Notes under the pieces: model-generated
Told to the model about the DNA's origin: nothing
The model's input: the letters and a program-made list of their open reading frames with translations, nothing else
Database searches by the model: none
Program-made: the position numbers and the translations under genes
Assembly: GCF_018977255.1 (NCBI RefSeq)
Contig: NW_024704750.1
Coordinates: 4,092,001-4,156,000, forward strand
Direction of reading: 5' to 3'
DNA length: 64,000 nt
From: Callorhinchus milii
Taxonomy: Eukaryota
Shown: one piece after another, positions 19,587-48,200 of the stretch
Position numbering within the stretch: position 1 is the stretch's first letter
Layout: every line of letters begins with the position of its first letter

Positions 19587-20574
19587 GTGAGGGTTTGGGG
19601 CTCTTTTTTTTCTCTCCCCCCAACCGCGTGGGACCGCTTCTTGACGAGCTCAGGCCGCCTCCCGCGCTGCCCTCCGCCCCGCGTCGGTGATTCGGGCGGT
19701 TGAGAAGCGGCTGCTCGGAAACGCGCTGAGGCGGCGATGGCGCCGGGCCCTGTGCCGCCCGCGCTAGGCCCGGCCCGGCCCCCTCCCCCCGCCCCGCCCG
19801 CGCTAGGCCCGGCCCGGCCCGGCCCCCTCCCCCCGCCCCGCAGGCCCGGGGTCCGGCGGGTCTGGACTCTGGAGTTTAAGCCGCTGACGGATAGTTTCGC
19901 TGTGGGTCGGACCCGGTTGGGACCGAATGGAAAATCGCCTGTGGTTCCCGGCGGCGGCGACTCTAAACCAACCGCGTGGCTCCCGCAGACCCTCCCGCCC
20001 GGGGGGGGGCCTGGAAACGGCTAAACTGCACCGGGATAGGCCCAGCGTCAGGGCCGGTGCCGGTGGGGGGGGGAAGCCGTGTTACTGGGGGGGATACAGA
20101 GAGCGGTTGGAGGATAATCTGACGGTGGACAGAAGGAGTCCCTGAATGATGGCAGTTGTTTGGTTTCCGACAAATCTAATGGTGAAAGAAGCGATTTTTT
20201 TTTTTTAATCGGTGTATTATTTGCCCAGATTCTGTTTCAATCAATCAATCAATCGATCGATCAATTCTTTTTATTTATATGTACTTATATTTCGCCCACA
20301 AACTACGCAGCGGTCAACCCACTTTACGGCATCTTCTGTGAGGCGCTTTGAGACGTTTCAACGGTGTGATAAGGCGCGATGTCAAATGCAAGGATTATTA
20401 TTATTATTATTATCTTAACCGTCCGCGCACCTGTACTCGTTGCACCACGATGGAGCGATACACTTTACACCTCCTGACCAGCGGCAGGCGACTAATATTT
20501 CAGACAGATTAGGATGCTTCCATTGCATTGTAGCGCAGAGGCATGAATGTTTTTGTGTTGCCCGCAGAATCATC

Positions 20575-23275
<2,701 letters not shown>

Positions 23276-24261
23276 ACATGTTTTGACTTGGTTTCCTTTG
23301 AGCAGAAAATTAACTTGACTTGGTTCAAGAATTAATTCTAATTCTGTATTTGAGAGTAAGGCATGGTTGGCTTTTCAGGACTATGGAATTCCAGAGGGAT
23401 CAGTTGATTGGTATGTTTGATATAAAAATTCTGTAATGATGGCTAATAAAATGCATTTCACTCACTTTGCTTTCACTGCTTTGTTTAGCAATTGACTCAA
23501 TGATTTTCAGGCCACTAGATTTGGAAAAGATCTCAACTTGCGATGCTGAAAACAGGAAAGTTCAGCAAATATCTGATGTTCTCTGACCTATGGTCAGTAG
23601 CAATTATTTTGAACATTTTTAGTTTGGAAAATTGTTCATGTTGTAGGTCCTTCTCATTCTATGAATGCAGAAAATAGAGTTAAGAGGGAACGATGAAAAA
23701 ATATTGTGTTTGGTTGCAGGGATGGAGCTAAAACCAGAGGGGTAGTGCCATTATGGGGGAGTGTCTCTGTTCAAGGAACGATGAGATTCGTAAACATGCA
23801 GGGGGTGAGGTGGGTAACAGGCATGTGCTTATGAGACCAGTTTCCATTTCCGTCCTCACAATAATATGACCAGAAGTTGGCAGAGCAAAGGACGACTACA
23901 ATCACTAAGGAAAGTGGAAACTCACCTTGCTAAAATAGACTCTGTTTGTAGATCACAACAAATGTATTCAAAATCAGCCATACAAACAAAAGGCAGTTTC
24001 TCGTGCTAAAAAAACATTTATTGCATTTATTGAAGATAGTCTTGACTAGTGCAAGACTTAAACTGAGCATAACTGAAAAATCATCTGACTTCTCCAACAT
24101 TGTGATGGTGTGATCACCCACAACGCATTGAAATGAAGAGTTGCTGAACAAGGTTTTAAACAATTATAATTTTCAAACCAAATATGTCCACAAGTTGTAT
24201 ACCGCTTGCATTATTTCAAATGCAGTGCTTCATAGGATAAACGTGAAGAAGCTAAAGTCTG

Positions 24262-27200
24262 TTAATCGATATCCACCAGTTCAACTTCAAAAATAAGTTT
24301 AGCATTTGGTGGGATTCTGTTTGAAACAGTTAAAGAAAATCAGGTTGTGGTGAAATTTTAAAAGCTGTTAAACTGCAGTAAAGCCACATTTTTTGCGATA
24401 ACGAAAGTATGCACTTCTTTGAGATCAATGGTAGATATTTATAATGTTTAGATGGTCGGAGTGACATTTATAAATCCATAATAAGTAGTTATTGTCAGGT
24501 CTGTTTGAAAACTGCGCCTCGGCATACAATATTATTAACACACAGTACCACAATCCCAATCCACCATTCCTTTGAAAGGTTCAAAACCCTAACATCAGCG
24601 CAATAAACAGGTTGCAAGTTCAAAACTTGAATTCTCCGTCTTTTGAGGGTGTTTTTGCAGGGTCCTATAGCTCAGTAGTTAGAGCACTCTCCTTGCAAGC
24701 TAGACAGCTGGTTCAATTCCAGGCAGGGCGAAACCTTGGGCAAGTTTCCTTACTCTACATGCCTAATAATAATCCCTCCAAAATAAAAAATAATAAATTG
24801 GGACACTGCTGTGCGCAATTGGCTGCCGCGTTTTGCCCACATATATACAGTCAATTCACTTTACAGTATATTCTGTGGAGCGCTTTGAGATGTCTAGAAG
24901 ATGTAAAAAGCGCTATATCAAATGCAAGTATTATTAATATTTTTCAGGAGGTGGACAGAGTATGGTTTCCATCCAGGAGCTGCTAATGTGTTTGCCTCTC
25001 CTGTAATTTTCACAATTCTTCCTGTGCCTCTTCCAGCACCTTGGGACATCCTCCCAATGTGTAAGGTTCTATATAAATGTAATTTGTTGTACAGGATCAT
25101 TTAAGACTAGTAGGTACTGTACATTGCACTGGACCCACTAACCTGTAACCATTCTGCAACTACGTTTGAGTTCTTAAGCTGCAAACGTTCTTCATCTACC
25201 ATGTTTTTCACCAGACTGCCACTTGAAAAGGATACTTAGCATCTGGCTGCCCTTTCTTGCCATAAGCCCACTCCGACTCAATCTCTAGACAGGCCTTTTC
25301 CCCTTTAGTCATTGTCAGGAGCGCTTCATCCCACTGCACAGAGAAGAGAGTCTTTGGTCAGTTAAGAGTCGGACAGCAAATGGGAGACGATCCTGATCAC
25401 TTGTACAAAACATGATTTCAAAGGACGGTTTTCCTCAGACAATCATTACTGTGGAAAGATAGCTCTATGCTCTTACCCCACGGATAACTCTTCCAACTCC
25501 TACTTTAAAGCTCAATGGTTTTGATCCTTTTTTCTTTTTTGAACCTAAAAAGGGGAATATAATCCAATAATTATCCCAAAAGCTCTCTGTACCCCTTTAT
25601 AAAGACAATTCAGAATATTATCTTGTAATGTAATAAAACATATCTTCAATAGCAACATCTTTAAACATTGGATTGTGTTCACGCTATTTTACCTAACGTT
25701 TCTAATTAAATGAATAACAACAACAAAAACAAGATTCCATTTATAGAGTGCCTTTCACGTCGGGAGGACGTCCCAAGGCGCTGAGCTGTCCTTAGGACAG
25801 CTTAGGAGCTTAGGATCCTTAGGAGCTGAGCTGTCAGAAGAGGCAGGATACTTTCGCATAGGGACAGAACGACTAAATACATTAGGAAGGAAAGTCACCA
25901 AGCAGCATTCCTACATGGATCCCAAGAGACAGCCCAGAGTATCAGTGGAATAGACATAACAAGTCGACATTACTTTGTCTTAAAAATACATTGCCAATTC
26001 CTTGATACCCTAACAGCTAATATGTGCGGCACTAAGCTATGCAGACCCAAGGTTTTCAGTTCAATTCCCAGGTTTAAGGTCATCTCCAAGCAGGAAAAGC
26101 CTTTCAATTGTATCAGGACCCCTGGTCCCATTATTCATCACTATCCAGTGACTCCTACTGGACATAGGAATCTAGATATTAAATCAGAATATAGAGCTTG
26201 GCTTTGATTATATTTCCCACTCCCTCCCCACTCGAAACACCCACTGTGCTTGGCTCACAACACGAAGAATAGCCACTTAGAGAAGGCACCAACATGAACC
26301 AAGGCCCTTCAAACTATCCTAACAAGGAATGAACACCTTCAGGAGGATGGGGTAGTCCACATGTATGCACATGACATCCAACTCTACCCCCAGCTCCGGT
26401 CCGAAACTGACTGTCCAGCGTGAAAGGCGTTATACAAATGTCATTTTGTGTTGTTGTTGTTGTAGTCTCTTAATTTGAACATAAAATGCCATACCACAGG
26501 AAGAACCCCGGGAGCAGCCTATTTCATTGGTTCGTTGAGGAATACAAAAGAATCTGTAAGTGTTCATACTAACTTATCACATTGAAATATCTCGAAGCAT
26601 GTCACAGATCATTATTATCAAGTATGGTGACTGTTTTTTCCAGGCATGCATAGAAATCATTTGCACCAGGAAAGGTCCCATGAGGGGCCATTGAATGGCT
26701 TGGACTGGGAGAAACGCTTCTCTTTAAACCTAATAGATTGAATGAGTTTCAAAAGGCAACAATAAACTATACAAATTAATTTGGGTCCTTCACTGCGGCA
26801 GATTATTAAACATTTCTGCATTATATGATCCTTACTAGAAGCAATGTTTGTATCGAACACCGTTCCATCTTCTAATGTTCCCGTGTACCAACAGTGGACA
26901 GTGTCACCCTTCTTGGGAAAGTTGATCCGGTCTCCTTTTTTCAACACATTTTTGGTGTATTTTGGTGGGCCCTAGAATTAATAAGCAGGATTGAAACTGT
27001 AGTTGTAGTCATTTAATTATTTGACATGTTATTTGATATGTTAAATAAAAGTTAAAAAGGTTGATTTATAGCTCACATCATGTTCCATCACTATTTTAAT
27101 AAACACTAATGGTTATCAAGAAATAAAGAACATGGTTTTTTTTAAACAAAATCTGGAATGCAGGTCCTAAATGCAACTTTGAAAACAGCTATCGATTGAA

Positions 27201-29978
27201 AAGTATGCTGTAAATTTGACCACTTGGACATTCGCACCAGTCCTGGTTGAGTGTGTACTAAATCAATGCCTTGTTTATAGTAGCTACCCGGGTAATAATG
27301 CCCATAGCACGGCCATAAATCAAGAAATATTCAGTCAAGAAAATGTAATTATTTGAACCTGTATATCACCTGTCACGTCAGGAGGATGTCCCAAGGCACT
27401 GGACAATCAATGTTTTTAATTTAAAAATATATATATATATCTATAATTTCTAATTTTAAAACTTATTTTATTCCCAAACCTCTGGAACGATTTCTTCAGG
27501 CTTCTTATCCTTTGGTTTGTCTTTTGCAGGCCCAATATTCACATCCTTAAGCTGCTGTGTGACTTCTTCAGTACCTTTAAACCTCTGTAAATGTAAAAAT
27601 AAATATAGAAATCTCCCCACACGATTAATTAAAAATCAAAGGGAAATAACTTGCCTATTTATGCAGTCTTACACAAATACTGCACAGTGAACAACAGTGA
27701 AAGCGGGTTTAACTGTATATCTGCATAAACACCATTGAATGATCAGTACACCCCATTGTTGCACCTATTAAATGTTTGTTTACATTGACAAACCTTTAGC
27801 TTAAAATTATACATTTCTCACAATTTCTCCATCACAGTAGAATTAAGCCTCAATATCTAAGCTACATTTGCAAAGTTATGTTATTGGTTTAAAAGGCTCC
27901 TTCCTTACCTTGCTTTCAAACAGTTGATTGTAGGCAATAATTAGCTGCTCCTTCTTTGCAGTCTTGGCTACATTTTTGATATTTCCCATCAATTTATGTT
28001 CAGAAAGAAACTATTTTTTTCAAAAAAATGTGCATAAGTTAGATAATTGTGTACTGTTGAGGAATACCGTGTGTATTCATATCTCATCTATCAATGCAAT
28101 GAGCAATTTTGTCTGATATTTGAGTGGATTACAGCTGTTCTGCTCCCCCCCCCATGAAACGTTTTGAATACTTGTAATACTAAAAGTTATTAAAACACCA
28201 TTGAACGATTTTGTTTCATAATAAAGTATTAGGATTGAGATTAATTTTGCGCTTCAATTTTCTGTACTGTAACTTTGTACAATTTTTTAAAAAAAGCATA
28301 TCTATAAATTATAAATGAGGTGTTTTCCCCCTTCCCTCCCTGATCGAACAGAAAATCAATAAGGAAGAGAGATGGGGCACAATGCGGGAAAATAGGGGGC
28401 ACGGGAAGAGAAGAGAGAAACGTAGAAAGATTCATGTCCCTTAAAAGATTTCAAACGTGGGATTTTTTTATTTTTTTTTGCTTTTGCTTTGCAAAAAAAA
28501 ATGCCGCGGGCGCGAGCGATGGATCGAGCGAGCGATGGATCGATCGGTTAAGAACATAAGGGTTTGCTACGGCGAAAGAAGACCAAACAAGGTCCGTCTA
28601 ATTGGCCTTCTGCCATCCTGGCAGTCGCTTGACATGTCGTGTCCCGAACTACATACCGTATCCCCAGATAAGTTATGATCCGATGCGATTCACTGCCCGA
28701 ACCCCAATCATTCCATTATTATTAATAATGATGGTTATTGTTGTTATTATTATTGTTGTTGTTGCTGTTGTTGTCACTTGACCATTTGTCAGCAAAGACA
28801 ATTTCCCCACAGAGAGAGAGAGAGGATCACTCAGTTAGATTGAGAGAATGGAGTGAGAGAGAGAGAGAGTGAGAGAGAGGATCACTCATTTAGATTGAGA
28901 GAATGGAGTGAGAGAGAGAGAGAGAGAGAGTGAGAGAGAGGATCACTCATTTAGATTGAGAGAATGGAGTGAGAGTGAGAGAGAGAGAGTGAGAGAGAGG
29001 ATCACTCATTTAGATTGAGAGAATGGAGTGAGAGTGAGAGAGAGAGAGTGAGAGAGAGGATCACTCATTTAGATTGAGAGAATGGAGTGAGAGAGAGAGA
29101 GAGTGAGAGAGAGGATCACTCATTTAGATTGAGAGAATGGAGTGAGAGAGAGAGAGAGAGTGAGAGAGAGGATCACTCAGTTAGATTGAGAGAATGGAGT
29201 GAGAGAGAGAGAGTGAGAGAGAGGATCACTCATTTAGATTGAGAGAATGGAGTGAGAGAGAGAGAGAGAGTGAGAGAGAGGATCACTCATTTAGATTGAG
29301 AGAATGGAGTGAGAGTGAGAGAGAGAGAGTGAGAGAGAGGATCACTCATTTAGATTGAGAGAATGGAGTGAGAGAGAGAGAGAGAGAGTGAGAGAGAGGA
29401 TCACTCATTTAGATTGAGAGAATGGAGTGAGAGAGAGAGAGAGAGTGAGAGAGAGGATCACTCGTTTAGATTGAGAGAATGGAGTGAGAGAGAGAGTGAG
29501 AGAGAGGATCACTCATTTAGATTGAGAGAATGGAGTGAGAGAGAGAGAGAGAGGATCACTCGTTTAGATCGAGAGAATGGAGTGAGAGTGAGAGAGAGAG
29601 AGTGAGAGAGAGGATCACTCATTTAGATTGAGAGAATGGAGTGAGAGTGAGTGAGTGAGAGAGAGAGAGAGAGTGAAGTCAAGAACCTCGAGGCCTCTGT
29701 TTGTGGCTGAGGCAGCGGGAGCCGCACTGGCGGCCGCTGGAGTGAGAGCCGCAGCCCAGGGCGCTGAGACCTCTCCCACCCCCACCAATGGCCGCCATTG
29801 CTCCCCCTCCCTCCCTCCCTCCCTCTCCCCCCCCCCACACCCCCTCTCTCCCTCTCCCCCCCCCACCCCTCACCGGCTCCGAGGCCCTCTCCTGCAGGAA
29901 CTGGATCATCTCCTTTTTAGACACATCGTCGCCCTTCAGCTGCTCCTCGCTCCACGCTCTGACTGCTTCACCTGCCAT
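24262..29978 (-). CDS. FKBP3: Peptidyl-prolyl cis-trans isomerase FKBP3 (FKBP25), 222 aa, 7 exons
   Basis: Exons 29978-29874, 28010-27909, 27584-27480, 26971-26836, 25544-25477, 25333-25236 and 24316-24262 total 669 nt. [130 protein letters not shown] on the minus strand at 24017-24022. Confidence 0.97.
24317..25235 (-). other. U12-type (minor spliceosome) GT-AG intron, last intron of FKBP3
   Basis: 5' splice site GTATCCTTTT. Branch site TTCTTTAAC (24329-24337) lies ~14 nt from the CAG acceptor, with no long pyrimidine tract. Confidence 0.88.
24660..24935 (+). mobile_element. tRNA-derived SINE with L2 tail (diverged copy)
   Basis: Same head, body and tail as 18784-19095. Confidence 0.85.
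28811..29675. repeat. Minisatellite in FKBP3 intron 1: ~15 copies of GAGGATCACTCATTTAGATTGAGAGAATGGAGT plus variable (GA)n, unit ~47-61 bp
   Basis: 15 occurrences of the GATCACTC core counted; spacers are GA microsatellite of variable length. Confidence 0.95.
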
Positions 29979-30870
29979 CTTCCTCCCCCTCGTCCTCCTC
30001 CTCCTCCTCCCCCTCGCGCCACCGCCACCGCCGCGGCTGCTCCTCCCTCCGCCTCCAGCAACAGCCGCGGCGGCGGCGCGGGGCGGGGCGGGGCGGGGGC
30101 GGGCGGGCGGGGGGCGGGGCCGAGCCAATAGCCCAAAGTCCACCCAAAAGTAGCCCCGAAAAACAGCCCCCAATAATATTACGCCCTTCATCTCCTATCA
30201 TGAGGGCGGCGGCGTCGTCACAGGTTGTTGTGTAAATCGTGTCGTGTCGTGTGTGTGTGGTGTAAAAAAAAAGTTCTTCGAAGGTGAAAGGATAAGAAAA
30301 AAATGTATTTTTTTTGGGGGGTGGGGGGGAGGTTTATCCCCACCCGCCCGTTGCCGCTAAAACCCGCCCAATTGGGCGTGAACCCGCCCACGCGCTCGGC
30401 AGATGGTGGTGGGACTTGTTCACCGCCGCCATCTTGGCCATCCCAACCTGGTGCCCTGTGAGGCCTGACCTTGACTGACTGACTGACTGACTGACTGGGG
30501 GGGGGTCACAACCACACCCCAACACCCCCCACCCCCCTCCCTCCCCCCAAACTGTACCCCCAACAATGGTCTGGATTGTTTGTTCTTGTTCCTCCTCCTG
30601 TTTATCGCAACGCCCGTTGGCGAGAAGCGACTCAGCGGAACGCTGCTCACCGCCCGCTGGTCGAGATCCCGGCGCCCGCGCGAGAGGCCGCTCCGCAAAT
30701 GTACATTTGCCGTTGTGGTGGCGGCGGCGGTGGTGGCGGTGTGGGTGGTGGTGGGCGGGCGGGAGACGGGGTAGGAAATTGCTGGTCCTGCGAGGGGCGT
30801 CCGCGCGAGGAATTGGCCCCTCATTTCGAGGGAAGGCAGCTCCTCGCCGGGATCAGCGCCTCGGGACGTC
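29690..30870. promoter_or_regulatory. FKBP3 CpG island and upstream promoter region
   Basis: CpG-dense. Tandem GC boxes at 30080-30120, CCAAT at 30126, and YY1 motif GCCGCCATCTTGG at ~30425. Confidence 0.7.
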
Positions 30871-31189
30871 CTCCCGGCGTGAAAGGCGCTCTCTTTAAGT
30901 GCAATCGTCTTGCTGTCGTTGTCGATTCAGAAGATTGCAGAAGATGGCGATAGAGGATTATGGGCTGAAGAGTGTAGGGGGAGGCAACTCGCGGAAGGTG
31001 GTCAGCGAGGACAGCTCTTGAGATATCGAGTGTGGACGGGCAAAAGTGCATGGACCCGGGGTTTAGCTGCTTTTGGGCGACGTAAGGATGGAGGTGGTTG
31101 ATGTTCTGGAGATCGAGGAAAGCTGTGGCCGTCAAAAAAAACAAAACGGATGTAGAGTTCGAAGAAAGAAATGATCCCCATCAGCCTTC

Positions 31190-31436
31190 AAACCTCGGGC
31201 AAGTTTCCTTACTCCACACAGAGCCTAATAATAATCCCTCCAAAACCCAAAACAATAATAAATTGGTCATTTTCGATCTACGACTGTTTGTGGGACATTG
31301 CTTTGCGCAATTGGCTGCCGCGTTCGCCCACAAATATACAGTCAATTCACTTCACAGTGTGTTCTGTGAAGCGCTTTGGGACGTCCTTCCGACGTGAAAA
31401 GTGCTATATCAAATGCAAGGATTATTATTATTATTA
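31190..31436 (+). mobile_element. 5'-truncated tRNA-derived SINE with L2 tail
   Basis: Body and tail match the SINE family; the head is missing. Confidence 0.85.
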
Positions 31437-32386
31437 GAGGTGTCCACCAGGCAAAGCTTAAACGGGGAATTTACTATATTCACGTCAGTCGGCTCAGCTG
31501 ATCAGCTTTTGCACAAGTTAAATAAAGTTAAATAAGCAGAAAAGTCCATCAAAGAAGTTACAACAGCCAAATTCAAGAAAGGAAATGTTGTGGTAGTTAG
31601 GAATTGGCCAAAAGGAAGACTTCACCTCATTAGTACAGTATTCTAATTCACAACCTTCTGGTTTCAAGTCTGGTGCTCAAGCGAGCAAAGTATGCTGTAA
31701 TGTTCAGATTTTTAGAAAGTTCCATAGAAATGTCTTACTATTGATAACATATTCATGCCAAATGTTGCACTTCCACTCTGTCTCTGTGAAGCACTTTGAC
31801 ACGAATACTCTGCGTGAAAGGCATTTTGTAAGTGTAAATTGTTGTTCGAGTGCTCCGAGACGCTACCCCACGTGAAGGATGCTATCATAAATAGCTGCAA
31901 AGCTGTCAACATCAGGTTAGTCTACTTGGAGTGAGTGACATAAATGATGAGCGCGATTGATTGGAAAATATTTAAACACAGTGGAAGTTATTATTTTTTC
32001 ACCAGTGACACAGTTCAAAATAGATTTTGGGTGCATTCAAAGTGATTCTGCTATATTTTTTGGTCAACTGGGTACCTGACATGCTGCTACTATGTGGCAC
32101 CTGGTGATGAGGGGCCTGAGGCAGCTGTTGTAGCTAAGGGTATCTTACCTGATAGCAATAACAGTGGGTGATGTTTTGAAGATGGAACAAAATGGTCCTT
32201 AGTCTTAGTTTGTTCTCAGTGTACAGTGTATAATTACCACAATTTTTAAAAATATCATCATTTAATTCAGTTTTATTTTGGGGAACCTCTTGCCTATTGG
32301 CATCAAAGTAATAATTATACTGTAGTTATGAATAACATATTTGAAGAAGTCAATTAATGCCGATTTCTCCAATAGCCATATAAGAG

Positions 32387-35300
32387 TTATGAAGATGCTC
32401 TCTCGGATGGGTCTTTTATTCTTCCCAAGAATAGTATGCTCTTTGTGGTTTCTTCATAGATCATTAGGAGAAATGGTCTGTCAAATTTGATTAAGGCAGG
32501 GAAAGACAATGTCATAATTCCCACAGTAGTGACTGAAGTAGCTTCGGTACCTTTCTCATCAACTTCCAGCACTGCATCGTGAGTAATCTTGCAAAATACA
32601 AACACAGGAAAAACAAACAAATAAATAAATACTCGATTTGAGCTCAAGGTGGCAAAGCTAGACATGAGGCAATTGTTCTTCTAGGTTTCCAGAGATTTCA
32701 AAATGTATTTACTGCATCTCAGAAAACATTCTGATTTAATGCACTAATCTTGGTTGATAAATATTGAAGCATTGTCTCAACTCTAAATATTAACTATTAC
32801 AGTATTATGAATGCATACATTTTTCTAGGAAGGTATTTTTTCTTTCTTGCGTTGGCAAGATATAGATTGGGTGTTTAAAGAAATTCTTTCATCTTTGATC
32901 CTAAGAGGCTTTTTTTAACTCAAAAATCTAAAATAGTAGATTGCTAGATATTGCAATTAAGTGTACCGAGGATACAGTATAAAGTGTGGAAGAAGAAACC
33001 ATTTGACCCAATCAACCTGTTTTTGCAACCATAAAAAATACATCTAATGCCGCTCACTCTAAACCACATAACTACAAAGATAATCAAGCAAAAAATATCC
33101 TTCAGAAAATTCATTGATACCCCACATACATCGATCCCCACATACATACATAACAACAACAACAACAACAAAATTACATTTATAGAGCGCCTTTCACGTC
33201 GGGAGGAGGTCCCAAGGTGCTGGACAGTCAGAGGTCAGCACCCATAACCCATAGGTATAATGGAGATTGCACCTTCTTGGTAATGCCGCCCTAATATTTA
33301 AGTACTGTACAGTGTATCCTAATGACTCGTTCAAGAGAACATACCTGGGAAACCTTCAGCTTCACACTTTCACTTATTCCAGACAGGTCGGCATGGGATG
33401 TAAATACATCTGTAACTCCCATTTCCATCAAGATGTCATTTAATTGGTAGGAATTTTTCACCATTAGTTTTGGAAAGTACAGATTGATGAATGAACTGTG
33501 GAATAAAATAAATTAAAATGAATAATAATAATAATAATGAATTATCATCGAATTCAAATGATACTTGTGCAGGGCCATGAACCCATCAATCTGAGAACGT
33601 AATAGTTTTGTATTTTAGTTATTAGTTACCTTCTGTAATGAAGTTGCTCCAACCATTCTCGGGAAAGATTTTCTTCCACGTGAGCTAGTTTATGTTCTGT
33701 AGGTAAGATGGCAATCATGGATATATTTCCTAAATAAACAAGCTTCACTACGGTGCAGAAGAGATTTCGGTCGAAAACTATTTGGAATCTGCCACGTTTG
33801 AACATCATTGGAACGTTTACTGTTTTGCCGTCGTCCGTTTGAAAGGTTGTTACTGCAGTGTGTGCTGGATCAAATGGATTCTTCCATTTACCTATTGGAC
33901 AGAAATATAGAGTAGTTTGGTATTTAACACAGCATTTAATATTTAAGATTGCTGCTGTTCTGCTGTTAATAATGTTTAAAGACTGATTTGTGATAATATA
34001 GTAATTATTTCACAACCAAATAGCAGACGTTTCAGCCCTGGAGAATGTCTCTCAACAATATCAGCTTTGATTGCAATTGATCTCTTCCCTGGCCGGATGT
34101 CCAAGTTACTAATAATAATCCTTGTATTTGATATAGTACCTTATATCATCGAGACGTCTATCAGTGCTTCACAGCATATACTGTAAAATGTAGGTAAAAC
34201 ACAGCAGCCAGTTAGTTGGGCATAGCAATATCCCACAAACAGCCATGGAGTGAGTGATCAATGTTATTTGGGGAATTGTTGACCAGCACACTGGGAGAAA
34301 GTCCCTTCTGTGTTTGAATAGTCCTATGGGATTGTTAACGTTTTCTTGAACAGGCAGACGGGTCCTTGGTTTTAACATCTCATCCGGGCATGGTGTTTAC
34401 CAGTCAATGGTCCCGCAACCAGGGAGGAAATTATGTATTCAATACCTTTGCCAGGTAAGAGCTTTTCAATTAAGATCAGATTTTACTCCATCCTGGAGTC
34501 CCTTTGCCTCACCCCTTCCCTCACCCGTGCCTTCAGTCAATTTCCCATCCACACCCACCCCCCACCCCACCCTTGCCCCCACCCCTTGCGAATCCAACCC
34601 TCACCTCGACTGACCAGCACCTTCAGACAACCTCCTGACGTGCGAGACGACTACATAAATGCAATTTGTTGTTGTTAGCGATCTATTAAGATTAAACACG
34701 TTTTACATGCACCCCTTCACATTATAATAATAATAATAATAATCCTTGCATTTGATATAGCGCTTTTCACGTCGGGAGGACGTCCCAAAGCGCTTCACAG
34801 AATAGACTGTAAAGTGAATTGACTGTATATTTGTGGGCGAACGTGGCAGCCAATTGCGCACAGCAATGTCCCACAAACAGTCGTAGATTGAAAATGACCA
34901 ATTTATTATTGTTTTTTTTTTGTTTTGGAGGGATTATTATTAGGCGTGTGGAGTTAGGAAACTTGCCCAAGGTTTCGCCCTAACAGCATGTCCTAAACAA
35001 GCATTCAAAAACTGAATCAGATTACCTTTAAAAAACATGTAGTTGATAAGCATCAGTTTAGTCGCAGGTTCAATTGAGTCAAAAAGTTTTTGAATTTTTC
35101 CATTTGTTACCTTTTTGATGTAATTGTTAATTTGCTGTGTGGCCCCTTCGGGATCTAAACTAAAATCCAAGTTGAACACATCAGCATTGTAAAACTTTTT
35201 GGTCTCATTTAAGAAGCCTGGCCGTACAGCAAAATCCTTTTGAATATGAAGGGAGTTTCCCGTTGACAGCAGAAAATTGCTATTTTCCATTGTCAAGGTC

Positions 35301-35641
35301 TGCAGCAAGTTCTTGAAGCCGGTGTTCATTTTTGTTCGTCGATCTTGGGTCATGTTCTTAAAATGAAGCCCTCCTAAGAGTTGCTCACGAGACGCTGACC
35401 TGGTTCCCAGAGACAGCATGGCTAAAGCAAAAGAAATGCTCAAAGGGGAGAAAAAAATGTTGGACGTGCTGTGGTTAGTGATTGTTTTGTAGAGATGGAA
35501 AGCAAAATCGGAATTTGCTGCAGAAATCGTGGCCATATCGGCAGGTGGCCGATCTCCTGGTGACTCCATGGGTTGGGAATGAGCTTCTGCTCCACTGGAA
35601 GAAGCAACTATCAACACAACGAGCACTGGAAGCAGCTTCAT
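32387..35641 (-). CDS. Secreted serpin (clade A / V2-type, alpha-1-antitrypsin-like), 409 aa, predicted inhibitory, P1-P1' Leu-Ser
   Basis: Coding exons 35641-35026, 33891-33630, 33495-33345 and 32587-32387 total 1230 nt in frame. Signal peptide MKLLPVLVVLIVASSSG; NIFFSPLSISFALAMLSLG; LINYMFFKG|KWKNPFD; hinge/RCL EKGTEATSVTTVGIMTLSFP; serpin signature IKFDRPFLLMI. Intron positions fit the A1AT-type gene structure. Confidence 0.92.
34723..34982 (-). mobile_element. tRNA-derived SINE with L2 tail (head truncated)
   Basis: Reverse complement of the SINE body and tail. Confidence 0.85.
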
Positions 35642-36290
35642 TTTGGCAGTTCTCCTCGACCCTTATTTTCTGGAGATGAACGGAACAAAGTGTGAATGTT
35701 TCCCAAGTACAATGTTTCTCCTGCTCCCTGCTTCCTGCCTCCAGTTGGTCACTTTCACGTTGCTCCCTTTCATATTGCTCCATCGCACCGCCACACATTA
35801 CACAGTTGTAGGTGGGTGAAATGTACCAGCCCTCAAGCATTGCAGCACTGATAGTGAAATAAATGGTGCAGTGCTTGTCTGTGAGCGCTTTGGCTTGCAA
35901 AGCCAGGGAAATTTTCACACATCCAAATTTCAATCAGATCAACCAAGGACCTTCCTGGTTTTATCTTATTTTTCTATTTATTTATAATAACACTCGTTGG
36001 ACATAGTTATAATATCTCCAATCGCTCTTTGTACATATTTAAACGTGTTTCATACAAATAGATTTGCATTATGTTTGATTTCACATGCATGAGATTCCAA
36101 AAATATACTCGCTTAAACAGTCACCATGAAAGCAATTTTTTTTTTCTAAAACATTTTTTTTATGCATTTGGAAAGTCGGAGAACTAAAGAAAATCAATCG
36201 TGGACAATTAATAAATCACGTTTTTTGTTAAAATGTCATACAGTGTTTTACTAGTTAATATGCTGCATAGTTCAACAATATTTTCAGTAC

Positions 36291-36490
36291 CTGATTGTTA
36301 GTTCTCTCCAAGAAAAGCCCACAACTTGTGCAACTGTGCTCTTATAGACATTGCAAAAATGTACTTTGTTCTTTGGTAGTGGAACAACACAAAGATCGAC
36401 AAATCTGTTGGCTCTTCATTACACAACTATGGTTTTCAAAAACATTTTTTTGCATCAATTCAGCATTTTTGTGAATTAATGTTTAACTTT
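36291..36490 (-). promoter_or_regulatory. Putative serpin promoter and short non-coding exon 1
   Basis: Minus strand: HNF1-like ATTAATGTTTAAC (36475-36487), HNF4-like CAAAGAACAAAGTAC (~36361-36375), C/EBP-like TTGCAAAA (36351), TATAAGA (36340-36346), donor CAG|gtactg at 36291. The acceptor of the ATG exon is at 35669. Confidence 0.55.
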
Positions 36491-39265: not shown

Positions 39266-42200
39266 ATGAGCGGCGCGAGGCAGCGCACGCTATACCAGAG
39301 CTGGGGCTCGAGCGGCCCGGGGACCAACGGCCGCCAGCCCCGGCCTACTGCCAGGGAGAAGCCTGGACCCTCGGCCGCCGCCGCCGCCGCCTCCGCCGCC
39401 TCTCGGGACGGCTTCGAGGACGAGGAGGATGACGACTTGCTCCTGGTGGCCGCCGCGTCCGAGGCCGAGCGAAGCCTGCGTTCGGGGCCCGGCGTCGAGC
39501 CGCCGCCGCCCTCCGGCTTCGACCTGTCCTCGGGCGACGTGTGGATTTACCCCACCAACTACCCGGTGCGGGAGTACCAGCTGAGCATGGCCCGGGCCGC
39601 CCTCACGCGCAACACGCTGGTCTGCCTGCCCACCGGCCTCGGCAAGACCTTCATCGCCGCCGTGCTCATGTACAACTACTACCGCTGGTTCCCCTCGGCC
39701 AAGATCGTCTTCATGGCCCCCACCAAACCGCTGGTCGCTCAGCAGATCGAAGCCTGTTACAAGGTCATGGGCATCCCGCAGGAGCACATGGCGGAGATGA
39801 CCGGTAACTCCACACACACACACACACACACACACACTTAACTGCTATAATAATAATCATAATCCTCGCATTTGATAAAGCGCTTTTCACGTCGGGAGGA
39901 CGTCCCGAAGCGCTTCACAGAACACGCCGGTCGAGTTGAATCGACTGTACGTTTGTGGGCGAACGCAGCGGCCGATTGCGCACAGCGATGTCCCACAGAC
40001 CGTCGCGGATTGAAAGTGACCGATTTATTATCGTGTTGGGGTTTTTGGAGGGATTGTTATGTTTCGGGCTCCGTGTGGAGTAAAGGGAACTTGCCCGAGG
40101 TTTGGCCCTGACCTGCCGGGGATTGAACTCGGGTCTCTCGCTCGCAAAGCGAGCGCTCTAACCACTGAGCTACAGGACTCCACTTCTCACAGCTGTCTCC
40201 CGGTGCTTCTCCGAATCTTACTGCAAAGTGGATTGATTGCATATTTTCCGCCACAACAACTGGCTCTGCTCTGCAGTACCTTTCACGTGGGATTTCACTA
40301 CTCCCCAATTGCTCTACAGTTTAAATGAATTCGGATCCGCGAGCGCTTCCCGATCAAATAGGGCGCTGCCCCTGCAAATGCTGTTTCTGTAACTGGCTAC
40401 GAGGAGCTGACCGGAGTTGTTTGTGCCCACGCCCTTGTATAAAATTAAATATGTTGAAATTGATTCAATATCTGGCTGAATGTGCAATGATTTCACAGGG
40501 CAGACGTCGGCAATGGATCGCCAGAGTATCTGGGACTCCAAACGAGTTTTCTTCCTAACGCCGCAGGTTATGGTGAATGACCTTTCTCGTGGGACTTGCT
40601 CTGCAGTTGAGGTGAAGTGTTTGGTGGTTGATGAAGCTCATAAAGCACTAGGAAACCATGCTTACTGCCAGGTATGGTACTGTAAAGAACGTCTTGCCTC
40701 CCTATCTCTATCTCCGACCTGCTTATACCACAACCTGGTGCCTCTACTTGACTGACTCCAGCCTTCTGCATGTCCTTCGTGCCCTCCATTCCATCATTGG
40801 CGGCTGCGCTTTCAGCCACTACGCCCTAAAGCTCTGGAACACTCTTCCTCTATCCCTCCACCTTGCCCCTTCCTTTCCCATCTTCAGGTGGTGCCTGAAG
40901 TCTTTCCTCTTCGACCTTGCCTTCAGACACCTCCCTCTCTTCTTGACATGGCATCGTACTCTGCCACTGTCAAGCGCTCTGGGATGCTACCCTGCATGAA
41001 GGATGCTATATAAATGCAGGTTGTTGTTGTCTTAGCAATTCTCGTGTTTTTCATCAGAAATTTACAATATTGTTTTACTTGTTTTATTTCTCTTTTCAAA
41101 GGTTGTGAAGATGCTGTGTAACTATACACGTCAGTTCCGTGTTTTGGCTTTGAGCGCGACACCAGGCAGTGACTTAAAGGTCTGTTATCAAAGGTTTATC
41201 TGTACATACGCAAAATGTATGACTTTTTCCTCCCATCTTCACTATTATGAAGAACTGCAAGCTTAGAATTATGACTACCGCTATACACAGGGGAAGCACT
41301 GTATTGTCAGCTGTGCAGTTCTTCAGTTGAATCAAGGTCCTAATGTCACTATTCCAAATGAGGATGAAACTCGTCTATGTAACATCCTAGTGGGTTACTA
41401 TTTTAGATTAACGAAAAGTACCCTGAATTCAATGGGTCTAAGTGAATTCTTCACCGTGTTCAGTGTGCATTGACAGGCATGTAATTATTTAATGTTGTAA
41501 TTACAGGCTGTACAGCAAGTCCTTTCAAACCTGTTGATTGCACATCTAGAGATCCGATCTGAGGATTCCCTGGATATTCAGGCCTATTCCCACCATCGAC
41601 AGATAGAGAAGATTGTTGTTCACCTAGGAATTGAGCTGAGTGGTATCCAATCGTTATACTTGGAGGTAGGTGCCCCATTTCCCTTCGAGAATGAGGTAAA
41701 ACTGCACTAAAAGATAATCCTGGCTTAGGCTCCAAGGTAACAGTTGTTCCATTTGGTTTGTCAGGATTCAAGCTGTTAGTGAAGTTCATAAAAGTTTAGT
41801 TTCAATGTATTTTTTTTCAATCGTTCAGTTGTACTTTCAAGCAATATTTTCAGCCTTCTTTTATGTGGTTAATTATGTCCTCTTTATTATTGTGATAGTT
41901 TAATTAGATTTATTGCAAAGCGTGTTTTTGATGTATTAACGTGTCAGCCTGGCTTGGTAAACTGCACTCTCACCTTTGAGTCAGAAGGTTGTGTGGCTTC
42001 AAGTCCCATGTTTGGACTTGAACCCACAACATAGTTGGCACATAGTCTAAGATGACATTCCAATGAAGTACATGTGATGTTTTACATTGTCAGAGGTGCA
42101 ATTCTTCAGATGTTAAACAGAGGTTCTGTCTTCTGTTCAGGTGAATGTTAAAGATCCCATAATACTACTGGAAAAGAGAAGGGAATTTACCCAATAAAAA

Positions 42201-45200: not shown

Positions 45201-48200
45201 ACTACCCCGCAGGAAGGGTGCTATATAAGTGCAAGTTGTGTGAATATTCTGAAGGATGAGATCAAAGCGGCTGAAGGGTCTTCGTCTGAATCTCTCTGAT
45301 TAATTCACACACATTGGTTGACAAAATATTAATCAACACAATGTATTAAATGCACACTTTTTGGGTTTAAGATTCTTACCTGGTATAAACAATGTTAGCA
45401 GGCCACTCCTCTATCTGAATGTCTGCTACTGACGGCTGTGGAATCTGATCTTGAAACTGTCCAGGCAGATGGTAAGCTACAGTAACTGTAGACAGCAGTT
45501 CTGACCGGGACTGGTTGGTACGCACTATGGTAACAATGGGGAGAGTCATCCCCAGATAGAGACCTGAAGAAATAACACATCAAAAATCATTGTGTCCACC
45601 CTTAAAGGATCTACAGCAAATTCAAAACCCTTTTTGACTTCCTCCTCTCAGAATGGTGCAAATAACTTTTAAGATATTTCTCTAGTTTTAAAAACAAACT
45701 CTGTTCTGTTTAAGAAGTTACTGAAAAGAAATGCAGAATAGCAACATTTTAAATACATATACCATCACATTTAACAGCATCTTATTGTAATACATATGGT
45801 CAATTCAATTATACATGTTTGATTTCCATTGTTCAATGTTGTGTAAGAAACAATTAAATATAGAAGGCCTATGTGCATATATAATAATAATCCTAATGTT
45901 TATGTACACAGCCATCCCTCTCCTCGCAAAATGTTCATTTAACATAATTGCATTTTTTGTAAATTCATGAATTGGTTTTGTTGTTTTGAGAAATCAATGT
46001 TTTTAGAATCTAAACAATTCTTGAGTACCTTCAGCAATTTTAAATTGAAATACAACCAATTGGCAGATTACAATCAACACCTGATTTTTTTGTATGTTTA
46101 TCACTTTGCATTGTCTGGACTGTAGGTATCTAGAAATAATCTGCCATTTGTGTGAGTTACCTGATGAGTTTTGCCCACAGATGTATCTCATCAGTTTCAT
46201 AAATCCCAGGCACGTGGCCTGCTCGTAATTGCCTTCATCCAGGTTGACACAAGCCCATTTAGCCTTTTCATATCGACGCTTTTCATACAGTACTTGGTCA
46301 CACTGAAAAATTAACGTGAGAAATAAATGAGCAATTCTAGCAGTATACATTTGTAGAAATAGCATAAACTCGATATGGCAAATGGCTCCTGTGCTAAACA
46401 CTGTATCTCATAGTTTTTACTATTTGGAACTTATAATGTAATAATGGTCTGCCAAGTCCTTTAGCAAAGAGCGTGAATTTTACTCATTACCTTTTTCTTT
46501 TGACTTATTTGTGCGAATGGTACCATCTCTCTGTCTTGAGGCTGGTTATTTCTTGTCAACTGTTGGATTGGTTCTGCCATTTCTAGTAACACAAGAGTAA
46601 AGGAAAACATTAATTTCAATAAGTTTATGAATGCTGTGTAATCAAACACTTGAATTTTCAAATCAAAAGGAGTCTTAAATCTAGAAATAACATGTGTTTG
46701 AAACCCAGGCTCGGACAGGCCATTTGCAGAATGACACTGATCCAAAATTGATCTGCCATACAAATAGTTGCAGGATTTAGTTACAAATCTGAAGTGCATT
46801 AGTGAAACTGAATGTGTAAAATTTCGCAATGATTAAAAACAAATACTACATTCATATTTTATTCTTTAACAAAGAGAAGTCAAATGCATTGCTGGGCATG
46901 AGCTTGTGTCTGAAATCCTTACCACATGAGTTGGTAGTTAGTCTCAATTGAGCTCTGCAAGTATCTCTCGACTGGGCGGAAGACTCCCCTGAGGAAATTC
47001 CTGTGTTCTTCAAGAGGATTGTTAGAACCGGATGTGATAAGTTACTTTGCCCTGTCTTGGGTAAGGAACAAACCAGCGATAGGGATATTTTTTTTAATGT
47101 GTGGTTGCACTAATTCTGCTCCTGCCACTCATGCTGTTTTTTTTTCTTTGTCGTCCTCCCCCTCCTCCATTTTCACCTCATGCCTCAAAGCATGTGACTG
47201 TTTTTTCCTTCTACTGGGATGTTTTAATGAGCCAGATGCTTTCTGAAATCTTGCACAAGTGAGTATTTCTCAACTGTGTGTTGACCGGCTTCTTGACTGT
47301 ATGGGCATTAAGGGAGAACAGGGGGCAGATACCTTGGCTATAAAGGCAAAATCAGTTGAGATGTTTAAGAGGGCTGCACATAGTTTCCTGGTAAATTAGG
47401 CTATTAAAAGGTTTGGAGAAAAAATGTGTGGAAATTGCTATTGCTGCTACGTTTATGCACAGAAATTTATTTTTGTGCAGACTCCAGTGTTTGTGCCACT
47501 CGGAAAACCAAAGGAGCAGTTGTGGATAAACGTTCTCCTAGTCTACACAAAGTATTTTTATATGGCAAACTGGAAAACTATTGATCTATTTGTTAGGTCA
47601 GGATATTAAGGGATACGGGGCAAGGGCAGATAATTGGACTTGAAGTACAGATCAGCCATGATCTTATAGAATGGCAGAACAGGCTCTAGGGGCTGAATGA
47701 CCTACTCCTGTTTTGATGTTTCTAAGGTTCCTTACACTCCTGCAGTTCTCTCTTCTCATCACTTAGTGATGCTGTGAACCAGCTGAGGACTGCTCCGCAC
47801 TGTACTAGATTCGTGGGTGTCACAATAATAGTTTGAAAATTGTGGTAAGACAAGATAGTGCAATTTGAGAAGTTGGAAAATTAATCAGGGCTTGATATAT
47901 CACCCTTCCGAATTATTGCCAGCGCAGAAACCTGAGAAAGAAGAGAGAACTAAACTGCAGGAGTGTAAGGAACCTTAGAAACATCAAAACAGGAGTAGAA
48001 ACCTGATTACGGCATGCTGCAATCGGTCTGCTTTCTCACCGGAAAACACATTTGCTTCTCTTGGACAAGAAAATTTGCAAACATCTTTTAATATGTAAAA
48101 ACATATACTGTTCATAGGGAATATGCATCTACTTTTCCACCAATTGTTAACAGATTTTCTACCATCACTCAGTTGAAGAACATGTGAGATCTTAAAAATC

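What the first reader, a model, noticed from the sequence alone, without database searches (positions are those of the whole stretch)
32387..36490. Intact serpin with a heparin-cofactor-II-like reactive loop between FKBP3 and FANCM
Seen: a complete 4-coding-exon secreted serpin (409 aa). Counting from the hinge (P17 E), the RCL EKGTEATSVTTVGIMTL|SF has P1-P1' Leu-Ser. Known: human FKBP3 and FANCM are adjacent head-to-head with no serpin between them. The HCII (SERPIND1) RCL, as I recall it, is EEGTQATTVTTVGFMPL|ST, and HCII has a long acidic N-terminal extension. This protein has no such extension, but its predicted helix D region is basic (KNMTQDRRTKMNTGFK). Inference: a separate V2-group serpin lineage outside the usual SERPINA cluster, possibly a glycosaminoglycan-responsive inhibitor of chymotrypsin-like proteases or thrombin, that is absent from this position in mammals.
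Basis: partly seen in the sequence, partly recalled or inferred. Interest (0 to 1): 0.7.

Follow-up and report, generated by a model that had tools for sequence, protein, structure and literature searches.

The report
Shark antitrypsin-like gene beside FKBP3
This is a real, spliced elephant-shark gene for a likely blood protease inhibitor of the alpha-1-antitrypsin type; it belongs to a separate branch shared with sharks and rays, and its likeness to the anticoagulant heparin cofactor II is probably a coincidence of this one species.

Summary
The gene is real: four coding exons, 409 aa, group-V2 intron phases, identical to the RefSeq elephant-shark (Callorhinchus milii) protein 'alpha-1-antiproteinase-like' NP_001279794.1, with splice joints in RNA-type contigs. 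It is not heparin cofactor II (HCII). The genome holds a true HCII elsewhere, and the usual antitrypsin/ZPI cluster lies 1.78 Mb away on the same scaffold. The protein is 46% identical to the cluster antitrypsin and 35% to HCII. Orthologs in 12 sharks and 6 rays form a 100/100 clade, and accession order puts the gene next to FKBP3 in 7 of 12 sharks. The HCII-like loop is real here (13/18, best of 184 loops) but not shared by orthologs (5-10/18). Helix D has 1 of 5 HCII basic positions, and there is no acidic tail. Best reading: a liver-made, heparin-independent inhibitor of chymotrypsin/elastase-type proteases (inferred, not assayed). Lungfish and sturgeon serpins may be orthologs, but the deep tree is unresolved: AU tests reject no placement, not even next to HCII. 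I found no paper on this lineage, and the scan had not noted it before.

The parts
35026..35641 (-). Coding exon 1 (ATG at 35641; probable signal peptide of about 20-22 aa; helices A-F); phase-1 intron follows (192a type)
   Evidence: 100% to K4GGW6 over 205 aa; joint 33887/35022 read CT..AC in 4 of 4 runs; signal peptide judged by eye
33630..33891 (-). Coding exon 2; phase-2 intron follows (282b type)
   Evidence: single contigs span exons 2, 3 and 4 in runs X1, X3 and X4 (table 8)
33345..33495 (-). Coding exon 3; phase-0 intron follows (331c type)
   Evidence: joint 32587/33345 in 4 of 4 runs
32387..32587 (-). Coding exon 4 with the reactive loop and the stop codon
32504..32557 (-). Hinge and reactive centre loop P17-P1' (residues 354-371); P1 Leu codon at 32507-32509
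   Evidence: 13/18 identical to human HCII, orthologs 5-10/18
35294..35347 (-). Helix D (residues 99-116); Arg101, Arg102, Lys104, Lys110; only Lys110 lies at an HCII basic position
   Evidence: helix 99-116 in the model; alignments
32272..32277 (-). Polyadenylation signal AATAAA
   Evidence: RNA-type contigs end at 32258-32281
35642..35671 (-). 5' UTR part of coding exon 1 and the AG acceptor of a 5' UTR intron (35670-35671)
   Evidence: one contig of run X4 stops at 35669 with 45 letters unplaced; AG at that place; one contig only
36285..36487 (-). Candidate untranslated first exon and promoter: HNF1-like site 36475-36487, HNF4-like 36360-36372, TATA-like 36340-36346, donor after 36291
   Evidence: recalled consensus motifs, each not above chance in the window; inferred only
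24265..29978 (-). FKBP3 (neighbour downstream of the serpin, with its own CpG-rich 5' region near 30000-31500)
39266..39802 (+). First coding exon of the FANCM-type helicase (head to head with the serpin)
   Evidence: Pfam ResIII and DEAD; the name FANCM is recalled

Best explanation
It is a spliced, four-coding-exon alpha-1-antitrypsin-type (clade A, group V2) serpin of a branch shared by chimaeras, sharks and rays, likely secreted from liver into blood, where it would trap chymotrypsin-, cathepsin G- or elastase-type proteases by the ordinary serpin mechanism, probably without needing heparin. Shown: gene structure, splicing, serpin family and predicted fold, the separate clade, and its place apart from the cluster in C. 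milii. Inferred: the protease binds the exposed loop and cuts Leu370-Ser371; the hinge (Gly P15, Thr P14, Ala P12, small P11-P10) lets the cut loop insert into sheet A and traps the enzyme covalently (established serpin chemistry, not assayed here). P1 in the family is a large hydrophobic residue (Leu, Met, Phe or Tyr) and P1' is always Ser. The HCII-like wording of this species' loop is read as the tail of ordinary variation in a fast-changing loop. The branch is at least as old as the chimaera-shark split. It most likely is an old duplicate from the antitrypsin/ZPI radiation, possibly with lungfish and sturgeon members.
For: Identical to NP_001279794.1 'alpha-1-antiproteinase-like precursor', with cDNA-type GenBank records in its cluster. 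Pfam Serpin E 5e-115. Model pLDDT 81; the best Foldseek hit is native antitrypsin and HCII ranks 32nd, with E-values all close. Core identity is 46% to C. milii antitrypsin, 39% to ZPI, 35% to HCII and 30% to angiotensinogen. Even exon 4 scores 69 bits on ZPI and 63 on antitrypsin against 42 on this genome's HCII. A true HCII with acidic tail and RRLTHRLFR helix lies on another scaffold. The clade has 100/100 support in 3 of 3 careful trees. P6-P3' is among the most variable stretches (49% against 73% for the core; 27 of 358 windows are lower). In run X3 the exon contigs have depth 8,000-12,000 against 5-12 in X1, X2 and X4; contig depth is a poor measure and the tissues are unknown, so this only hints at strong expression in one tissue.
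Against: No activity was measured, and liver origin is inferred. The AU test does not reject the clade joined to HCII (p 0.18, with a single HCII sequence on a long branch), to ZPI (p 0.08), to lungfish/sturgeon serpins (p 0.24) or to chondrichthyan antitrypsins (p 0.41). The C. milii loop really is the most HCII-like of 184, more so than this genome's own HCII (11/18). The core is basic (pI 8.9), though so is the cluster antitrypsin (8.6). 13 of 13 elasmobranch orthologs replace Gly P15 by Ser, Ala or Phe, which could weaken inhibition in those species.
Confidence: 0.72

Rival explanations
1. The chimaera copy has converged on HCII function: a glycosaminoglycan-assisted inhibitor of thrombin or chymase-like enzymes, working by a template mechanism as lamprey angiotensinogen does.
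For: Loop 13/18 identical to human HCII, P1-P1' Leu-Ser. Four basic residues in helix D, three of them at its N-terminal end. Lamprey angiotensinogen, another V2 serpin with an HCII-like loop, is a heparin-accelerated thrombin inhibitor (PMC4026541, parts 1-3 of 5 read).
Against: 1 of 5 HCII basic positions; helix net charge +2 against +5 and +8. No acidic tail. P2 is Thr where HCII and lamprey angiotensinogen have Pro. Arg102 and Lys104 are not conserved in orthologs. The genome has its own HCII. Plain antitrypsins of rays and bony fish reach 11-12/18 on the same score.
Confidence: 0.08
2. A weak or non-inhibitory serpin that serves as a plasma carrier, like the hormone-binding globulins; the drift would be strongest in sharks and rays.
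For: Gly P15 is lost in 13 of 13 elasmobranch orthologs, with bulky Tyr-Phe at P16-P15 in Cetorhinus and Carcharodon. The sturgeon relative has Ser-Lys there.
Against: P17 Glu, P14 Thr, P12 Ala, P8 Thr and P1' Ser are invariant in 14 of 14. The C. milii hinge is canonical. Catshark copies differ at the loop, the pattern expected of working inhibitors.
Confidence: 0.12
3. On history only: a duplicate of the antitrypsin gene that arose in the cartilaginous-fish stem and moved to the FKBP3-FANCM gap, so that bony vertebrates never had it.
For: The 57-row careful tree joins it to chondrichthyan cluster antitrypsins at 93/94. Same scaffold, 1.78 Mb from the cluster. AU p 0.41.
Against: The node dissolves in the 27-row tree and once lungfish and sturgeon sequences are added. 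Those sequences are nearer this clade than any other serpin in my reference set (bit scores 356 against 306 and 359 against 321).
Confidence: 0.3

Closest known systems
Alpha-1-antitrypsin / SERPINA1-like serpins (clade A, group V2)
   Same: Intron phases 1, 2, 0 at the V2 places and a probable 5' UTR intron; 41-49% core identity; best sequence and fold hits; hydrophobic P1 with Ser P1'; short N-terminus.
   Different: A separate clade, 1.78 Mb outside the cluster in C. milii and beside FKBP3. It keeps the C-terminal IYEE-type motif seen in ZPI, HCII and lamprey angiotensinogen. Elasmobranch members lack Gly P15.
Heparin cofactor II (SERPIND1)
   Same: V2 intron pattern (human HCII has the same three introns; PMC2746811 passages); P1-P1' Leu-Ser; loop 13/18 identical in this species.
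   Different: 35% identity; no acidic tail; 1 of 5 basic helix-D positions; P2 Thr; not in PI4KA; a true HCII exists on another scaffold.
Protein Z-dependent protease inhibitor (SERPINA10)
   Same: V2; exon 4 is the best paralogous match in the genome (69 bits).
   Different: 39% core identity; the ortholog with P1 Tyr sits in the cluster; separate clade in all trees (joining gets AU p 0.08).
Lamprey angiotensinogen (heparin-activated thrombin inhibitor)
   Same: V2 serpin with a similar loop ending (..VGIMPIS).
   Different: 36% identity; it has a strongly basic helix D (+8) and an angiotensin N-terminus, both absent here.
Lungfish 'A3N-like' XP_043930534.1 and sturgeon/paddlefish 'alpha-1-antiproteinase-like' serpins
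   Same: 47% core identity, nearer this clade than any other serpin in my set; distinct from the ordinary antitrypsins of the same species (100/99 clade).
   Different: Joined to this clade only in the quick tree (85), not in the careful one. The lungfish accession lies 3-5 numbers from the ordinary antitrypsin, so its locus may differ.

Membership tests
Serpin group V2 | Introns at 192a, 282b and 331c (PMC4476131 passages) | tested here: met
   Phases 1, 2, 0 at the same places as C. milii antitrypsin, ZPI, HCII and angiotensinogen
Serpin group V2 | Intron in the untranslated region (most members) | tested here: inconclusive
   One contig stops at an AG acceptor at 35669/35670; the upstream exon was not placed
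Clade A alpha-1-antitrypsin-like serpins | Closest similarity to SERPINA1-like proteins | tested here: met
Clade A alpha-1-antitrypsin-like serpins | Falls inside the antitrypsin/ZPI group to the exclusion of HCII and angiotensinogen | tested here: inconclusive
   Best trees place it there (80/75; 96 SH-aLRT), but the AU test does not reject a join with HCII (p 0.18)
SERPINA1 ortholog in the canonical cluster | Position in the cluster with ZPI, near DDX24 and ASB2 | tested here: not met
   Cluster at C9:2.33-2.35 Mb with DDX24-like and ASB2-like ORFs beside it (names recalled); this gene is at 4.12 Mb
Heparin cofactor II (SERPIND1) | Acidic N-terminal extension (PMC2746811 passages) | tested here: not met
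   4 D/E in 37 residues against 31 in 120
Heparin cofactor II (SERPIND1) | Arg/Lys-rich helix D (PMC2746811 passages; the five positions read from the alignment, their role recalled) | tested here: not met
   KNTME against RRRRH in C. milii HCII; orthologs 0-2 of 5
Heparin cofactor II (SERPIND1) | Nested in an intron of PI4KA (PMC4026541) | tested here: not met
   Lies between FKBP3 and a FANCM-type helicase
Heparin cofactor II (SERPIND1) | Leu-Ser reactive bond in a conserved loop | tested here: met
   13/18 identical, but P2 is Thr and orthologs do not share it
Heparin cofactor II (SERPIND1) | Glycosaminoglycan-accelerated thrombin inhibition | not testable with these tools
   Needs an assay
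SERPINA10 / ZPI | P1 Tyr, end of the cluster, groups with ZPI | tested here: not met
   P1 Leu; another gene (99.8% to P0410) fills that place
Inhibitory serpins | Hinge P17 Glu, P15 Gly, P14 Thr, small P12-P9 (consensus recalled) | tested here: met
   E-K-G-T-E-A-T-S-V in C. milii; P15 departs in elasmobranchs
Inhibitory serpins | Covalent complex with a protease | not testable with these tools
   Needs an assay

The most novel reading that the evidence does not exclude
Early jawed vertebrates had a third clade-A serpin beside antitrypsin and ZPI. It survives in chimaeras, sharks, rays, sturgeons and lungfish and was lost in teleosts and tetrapods (this part alone: about 0.45). In the chimaera its loop has converged on that of heparin cofactor II, making it a second, tail-less glycosaminoglycan-assisted thrombin or chymase inhibitor, like lamprey angiotensinogen.
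Probability: 0.06. Interest if true: 0.65.

Novelty: new member of a known kind. Interest (0 to 1): 0.3.

Why it matters
Reviews of vertebrate serpins list only angiotensinogen, HCII, ZPI, the antitrypsin cluster and two fish-specific genes for group V2; the word 'shark' does not occur in either main text searched (PMC4476131, PMC2746811). A stable extra branch at a second locus in cartilaginous fish, perhaps with lungfish and sturgeon members, adds one gene to the ancestral set of plasma protease inhibitors and one loss on the way to mammals. That is a modest point for serpin and clotting evolution. It becomes important only if the heparin-assisted reading holds, and the sequence argues against that.

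Tried and rejected
HCII or an HCII duplicate: rejected on identity, tail, helix D and locus, though not by the AU test. Gene conversion from this genome's HCII into the loop: rejected, since the loop DNA matches HCII at 30 of 54 bases and the cluster antitrypsin at 36 of 54. Intron pattern as a test against HCII: useless, because intron 241c is confined to some teleosts (PMC2746811). The word-based searches showed no bony-fish ortholog, but they missed the lungfish and sturgeon proteins that the full HMMER scan found, so they are no evidence of absence. Orthologs in gar, bichir, coelacanth or amphibians could be hidden inside 50% clusters. No run is on record as RNA, so tissue is unknown. HNF1-like (3 found, 4.6 expected) and HNF4-like (27 found, 37 expected) matches are not above chance in the window. 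The marker genes of Spn_94a are in a figure that the supplement text does not give, so a link to this locus is untested; PMC4476131 calls Spn_94a a ZPI paralog. DICER1 is on the same scaffold but 20 Mb from the cluster: uninformative. No complex prediction was run (an enzyme-substrate pair). Literature searches found nothing on this gene or lineage: searches gave 0 papers; some searches gave listings without a matching title; one search gave HCII background only.
Full report
Observation. Four minus-strand exons (35026-35641, 33630-33891, 33345-33495, 32387-32587) with GT/AG ends join into 409 codons and a stop; the intron phases are 1, 2 and 0, the V2 pattern 192a/282b/331c described in PMC4476131 (passages). 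The product is identical to NP_001279794.1 of Callorhinchus milii, 'alpha-1-antiproteinase-like precursor'; three other full-length records of its five-member cluster differ by 1, 1 and 4 residues. The joints 32587/33345 and 33887/35022 stand in contigs of 4 of 4 runs laid (2 studies; RNA is the tool's guess), and single contigs span exons 2-4 in three runs. Exon contigs of run X3 have depth 8,000-12,000 against 5-12 in the other three; contig depth is a poor measure and tissues are not given. One contig of X4 stops at 35669, at an AG, with 45 letters unplaced, which points to a 5' UTR intron. A candidate first exon and promoter lie at 36285-36487, in the order HNF1-like, HNF4-like, TATA-like, donor; the motifs are recalled and singly no more frequent than chance.

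Neighbours. FKBP3 (24265-29978, minus strand) matches C. milii FKBP3 at 94-100% in 6 exon pieces. A ResIII/DEAD helicase exon begins at 39266 on the plus strand; I take it for FANCM from recall. Both neighbours have their own CpG-rich 5' region, so here the serpin, not FKBP3, stands head to head with FANCM.

Other serpins of the genome. A search with exon 1 gave 15 matches among 36 candidates. Models built from fetched stretches show two near-identical antitrypsin-like genes and ZPI at C9:2.33-2.35 Mb, with DDX24-like and ASB2-like ORFs beside them (names recalled); HCII on C8, with the acidic tail and the RRLTHRLFR helix that align to PDB 1jmj; angiotensinogen on C3; and two HSP47-like genes. 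The gene in question is at C9:4.12 Mb, 1.78 Mb from the cluster. Core identity is 46% to the cluster antitrypsin, 39% to ZPI, 35% to HCII and 30% to angiotensinogen. Exon 4 alone scores 69 bits on ZPI, 63 and 51 on the antitrypsins and 42 on HCII.

Orthologs and locus. Searches give close relatives (54-62% where listed against the whole protein) in 12 named sharks and 6 named rays, all labelled antitrypsin-, antiproteinase- or serpin-A3-like. Against the family profile they score 696-843 bits; the next single-domain serpin scores 464 (best 120 of 553 listed). They form one clade at 100/100. I could not read shark genomes, so I used accession order as a proxy. In C. milii the serpin and FKBP3 are XP_007901999 and XP_007902000 (positive control). 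In 12 of 12 sharks both genes lie on a record of the same length. In 7 of 12 the numbers are within 20: S. canicula 1, Cetorhinus 2, C. punctatum 4 (and 1 in the GCC series), C. plagiosum 4, Rhincodon 11, Mustelus 13, S. torazame 20. In 5 of 12 they are 191-1142 apart. NCBI numbering is not strictly by position (my recall), so the far cases may mean little. Against my reading, the Hemiscyllium ortholog is 8 numbers from a cluster model. Rays were not testable.

The HCII likeness. Scored over P17-P1', this loop matches 13 of 18, the best of 184 distinct loops from 233 V2 sequences (median 8); ray antitrypsins reach 11-12, bony-fish antitrypsins 11, lamprey angiotensinogen 11 and this genome's HCII 11. 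The 21 elasmobranch family members score 5-10. P6-P3' is one of the most variable parts of the family (49% against 73%), while P17, P14, P12, P8 and P1' are invariant in 14 of 14. P2 is Pro in 12 of 13 orthologs and Thr here. On helix D only Lys110 falls on one of the five basic positions of HCII; net charge is +2 against +5 (HCII) and +8 (lamprey angiotensinogen), and Arg102 and Lys104 are not conserved. PMC2746811 (passages) names the basic helix D and the acidic tail as the marks of all HCII; both fail. The likeness is real but local to one species.

Deeper history. The full HMMER scan (best 150 listed) turned up two representatives nearer this clade than any other serpin in my set by a clear margin (the other 24 representatives so flagged are distant, under 39%): a lungfish 'A3N-like' protein and sturgeon/paddlefish 'antiproteinase-like' proteins. 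They form their own clade (100/99), apart from the ordinary antitrypsins of the same animals. The quick tree joins them to this family (85); the careful tree leaves them just outside and puts this family next to all ordinary antitrypsins with weak support. Without them, a 57-row tree joined the family to chondrichthyan antitrypsins (93/94) and a 27-row tree left it open. AU tests on the 33-row set reject none of four placements: with HCII p 0.18, with lungfish/sturgeon 0.24, with chondrichthyan antitrypsins 0.41, with ZPI 0.08. Only one HCII and two angiotensinogens were in that set. Of 32 further representatives put in the tree, none joined the family. No mammalian or bird sequence did so in any tree. 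My odds: ancient lineage with lungfish and sturgeon members about 0.45, chondrichthyan duplicate about 0.3, older paralog lost in all bony vertebrates about 0.25.

How it works. The model (pLDDT 81, loop 357-372 exposed and low-confidence) is a native serpin; antitrypsin leads the fold search and HCII ranks 32nd, by small margins. With a hydrophobic leader, five N-glycosylation sequons, a canonical hinge and P1 Leu, the likely role is a secreted suicide inhibitor of chymotrypsin-, cathepsin G- or elastase-type enzymes, independent of heparin. This is inference from established serpin chemistry. Nurse-shark plasma holds antitrypsin homologues, one rising after immunisation (PMC9207270, passages), but which paralog is unknown. 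The rivals are a heparin-assisted thrombin inhibitor like lamprey angiotensinogen (PMC4026541, parts 1-3 of 5 read; 0.08) and a non-inhibitory carrier (0.12), the latter prompted by loss of Gly P15 in 13 of 13 elasmobranchs.

Novelty. The protein is annotated and belongs to a well-known kind. I found no paper that treats this branch or its locus (nine searches; subscription journals are largely outside the library; PMC9110684 was read in passages for HCII background). The scan's own notes hold no look-alike. Verdict: a new member of a known kind, interest 0.3.

Noticed in passing
window 46006-46407 and 52170-52673 (minus strand): Two copies of a SOUL heme-binding gene exon (Pfam PF04832) lie antisense within the FANCM span, 98% identical over 1.1 kb; an earlier scan note reports a soul3 gene in a FANCM intron in another shark.
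   Followed up: partly
window about 20400-23300 (plus strand): Exons that read like FAU (ubiquitin-like/ribosomal S30; name recalled) lie between PRPF39 and FKBP3; Pfam gave no hit on the one short piece tested. From recall, human FAU is on another chromosome.
   Followed up: no
G000:C9:2328741-2341716 (L017-L019): The two cluster antitrypsin genes encode proteins that are identical except in the reactive loop (EIMPMSMPQ against EMIPTAIFP): a young duplicate with a changed target.
   Followed up: no
L022 (G000:C8:11.448 Mb): The elephant shark's own HCII has a diverged loop (ASLTKASFMPLS; 11/18 to human), less human-like than the gene studied here.
   Followed up: no
P0134/P0136 and P0007 cluster: Catsharks carry at least two near-identical copies of this serpin with consecutive accessions and different loops (P1 Leu and P1 Tyr).
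   Followed up: no
No skate ortholog appeared although three skates have FKBP3 records; possible loss in skates, but the search is known to miss relatives.
   Followed up: no
P0215: A 420-aa antitrypsin-like serpin is labelled Salmonella enterica on a 1.3-kb contig, probably host contamination.
   Followed up: no
G000:C15:16.58 Mb and G000:C1244: Two HSP47-like serpin genes (name recalled from the sequence) exist in this genome.
   Followed up: no
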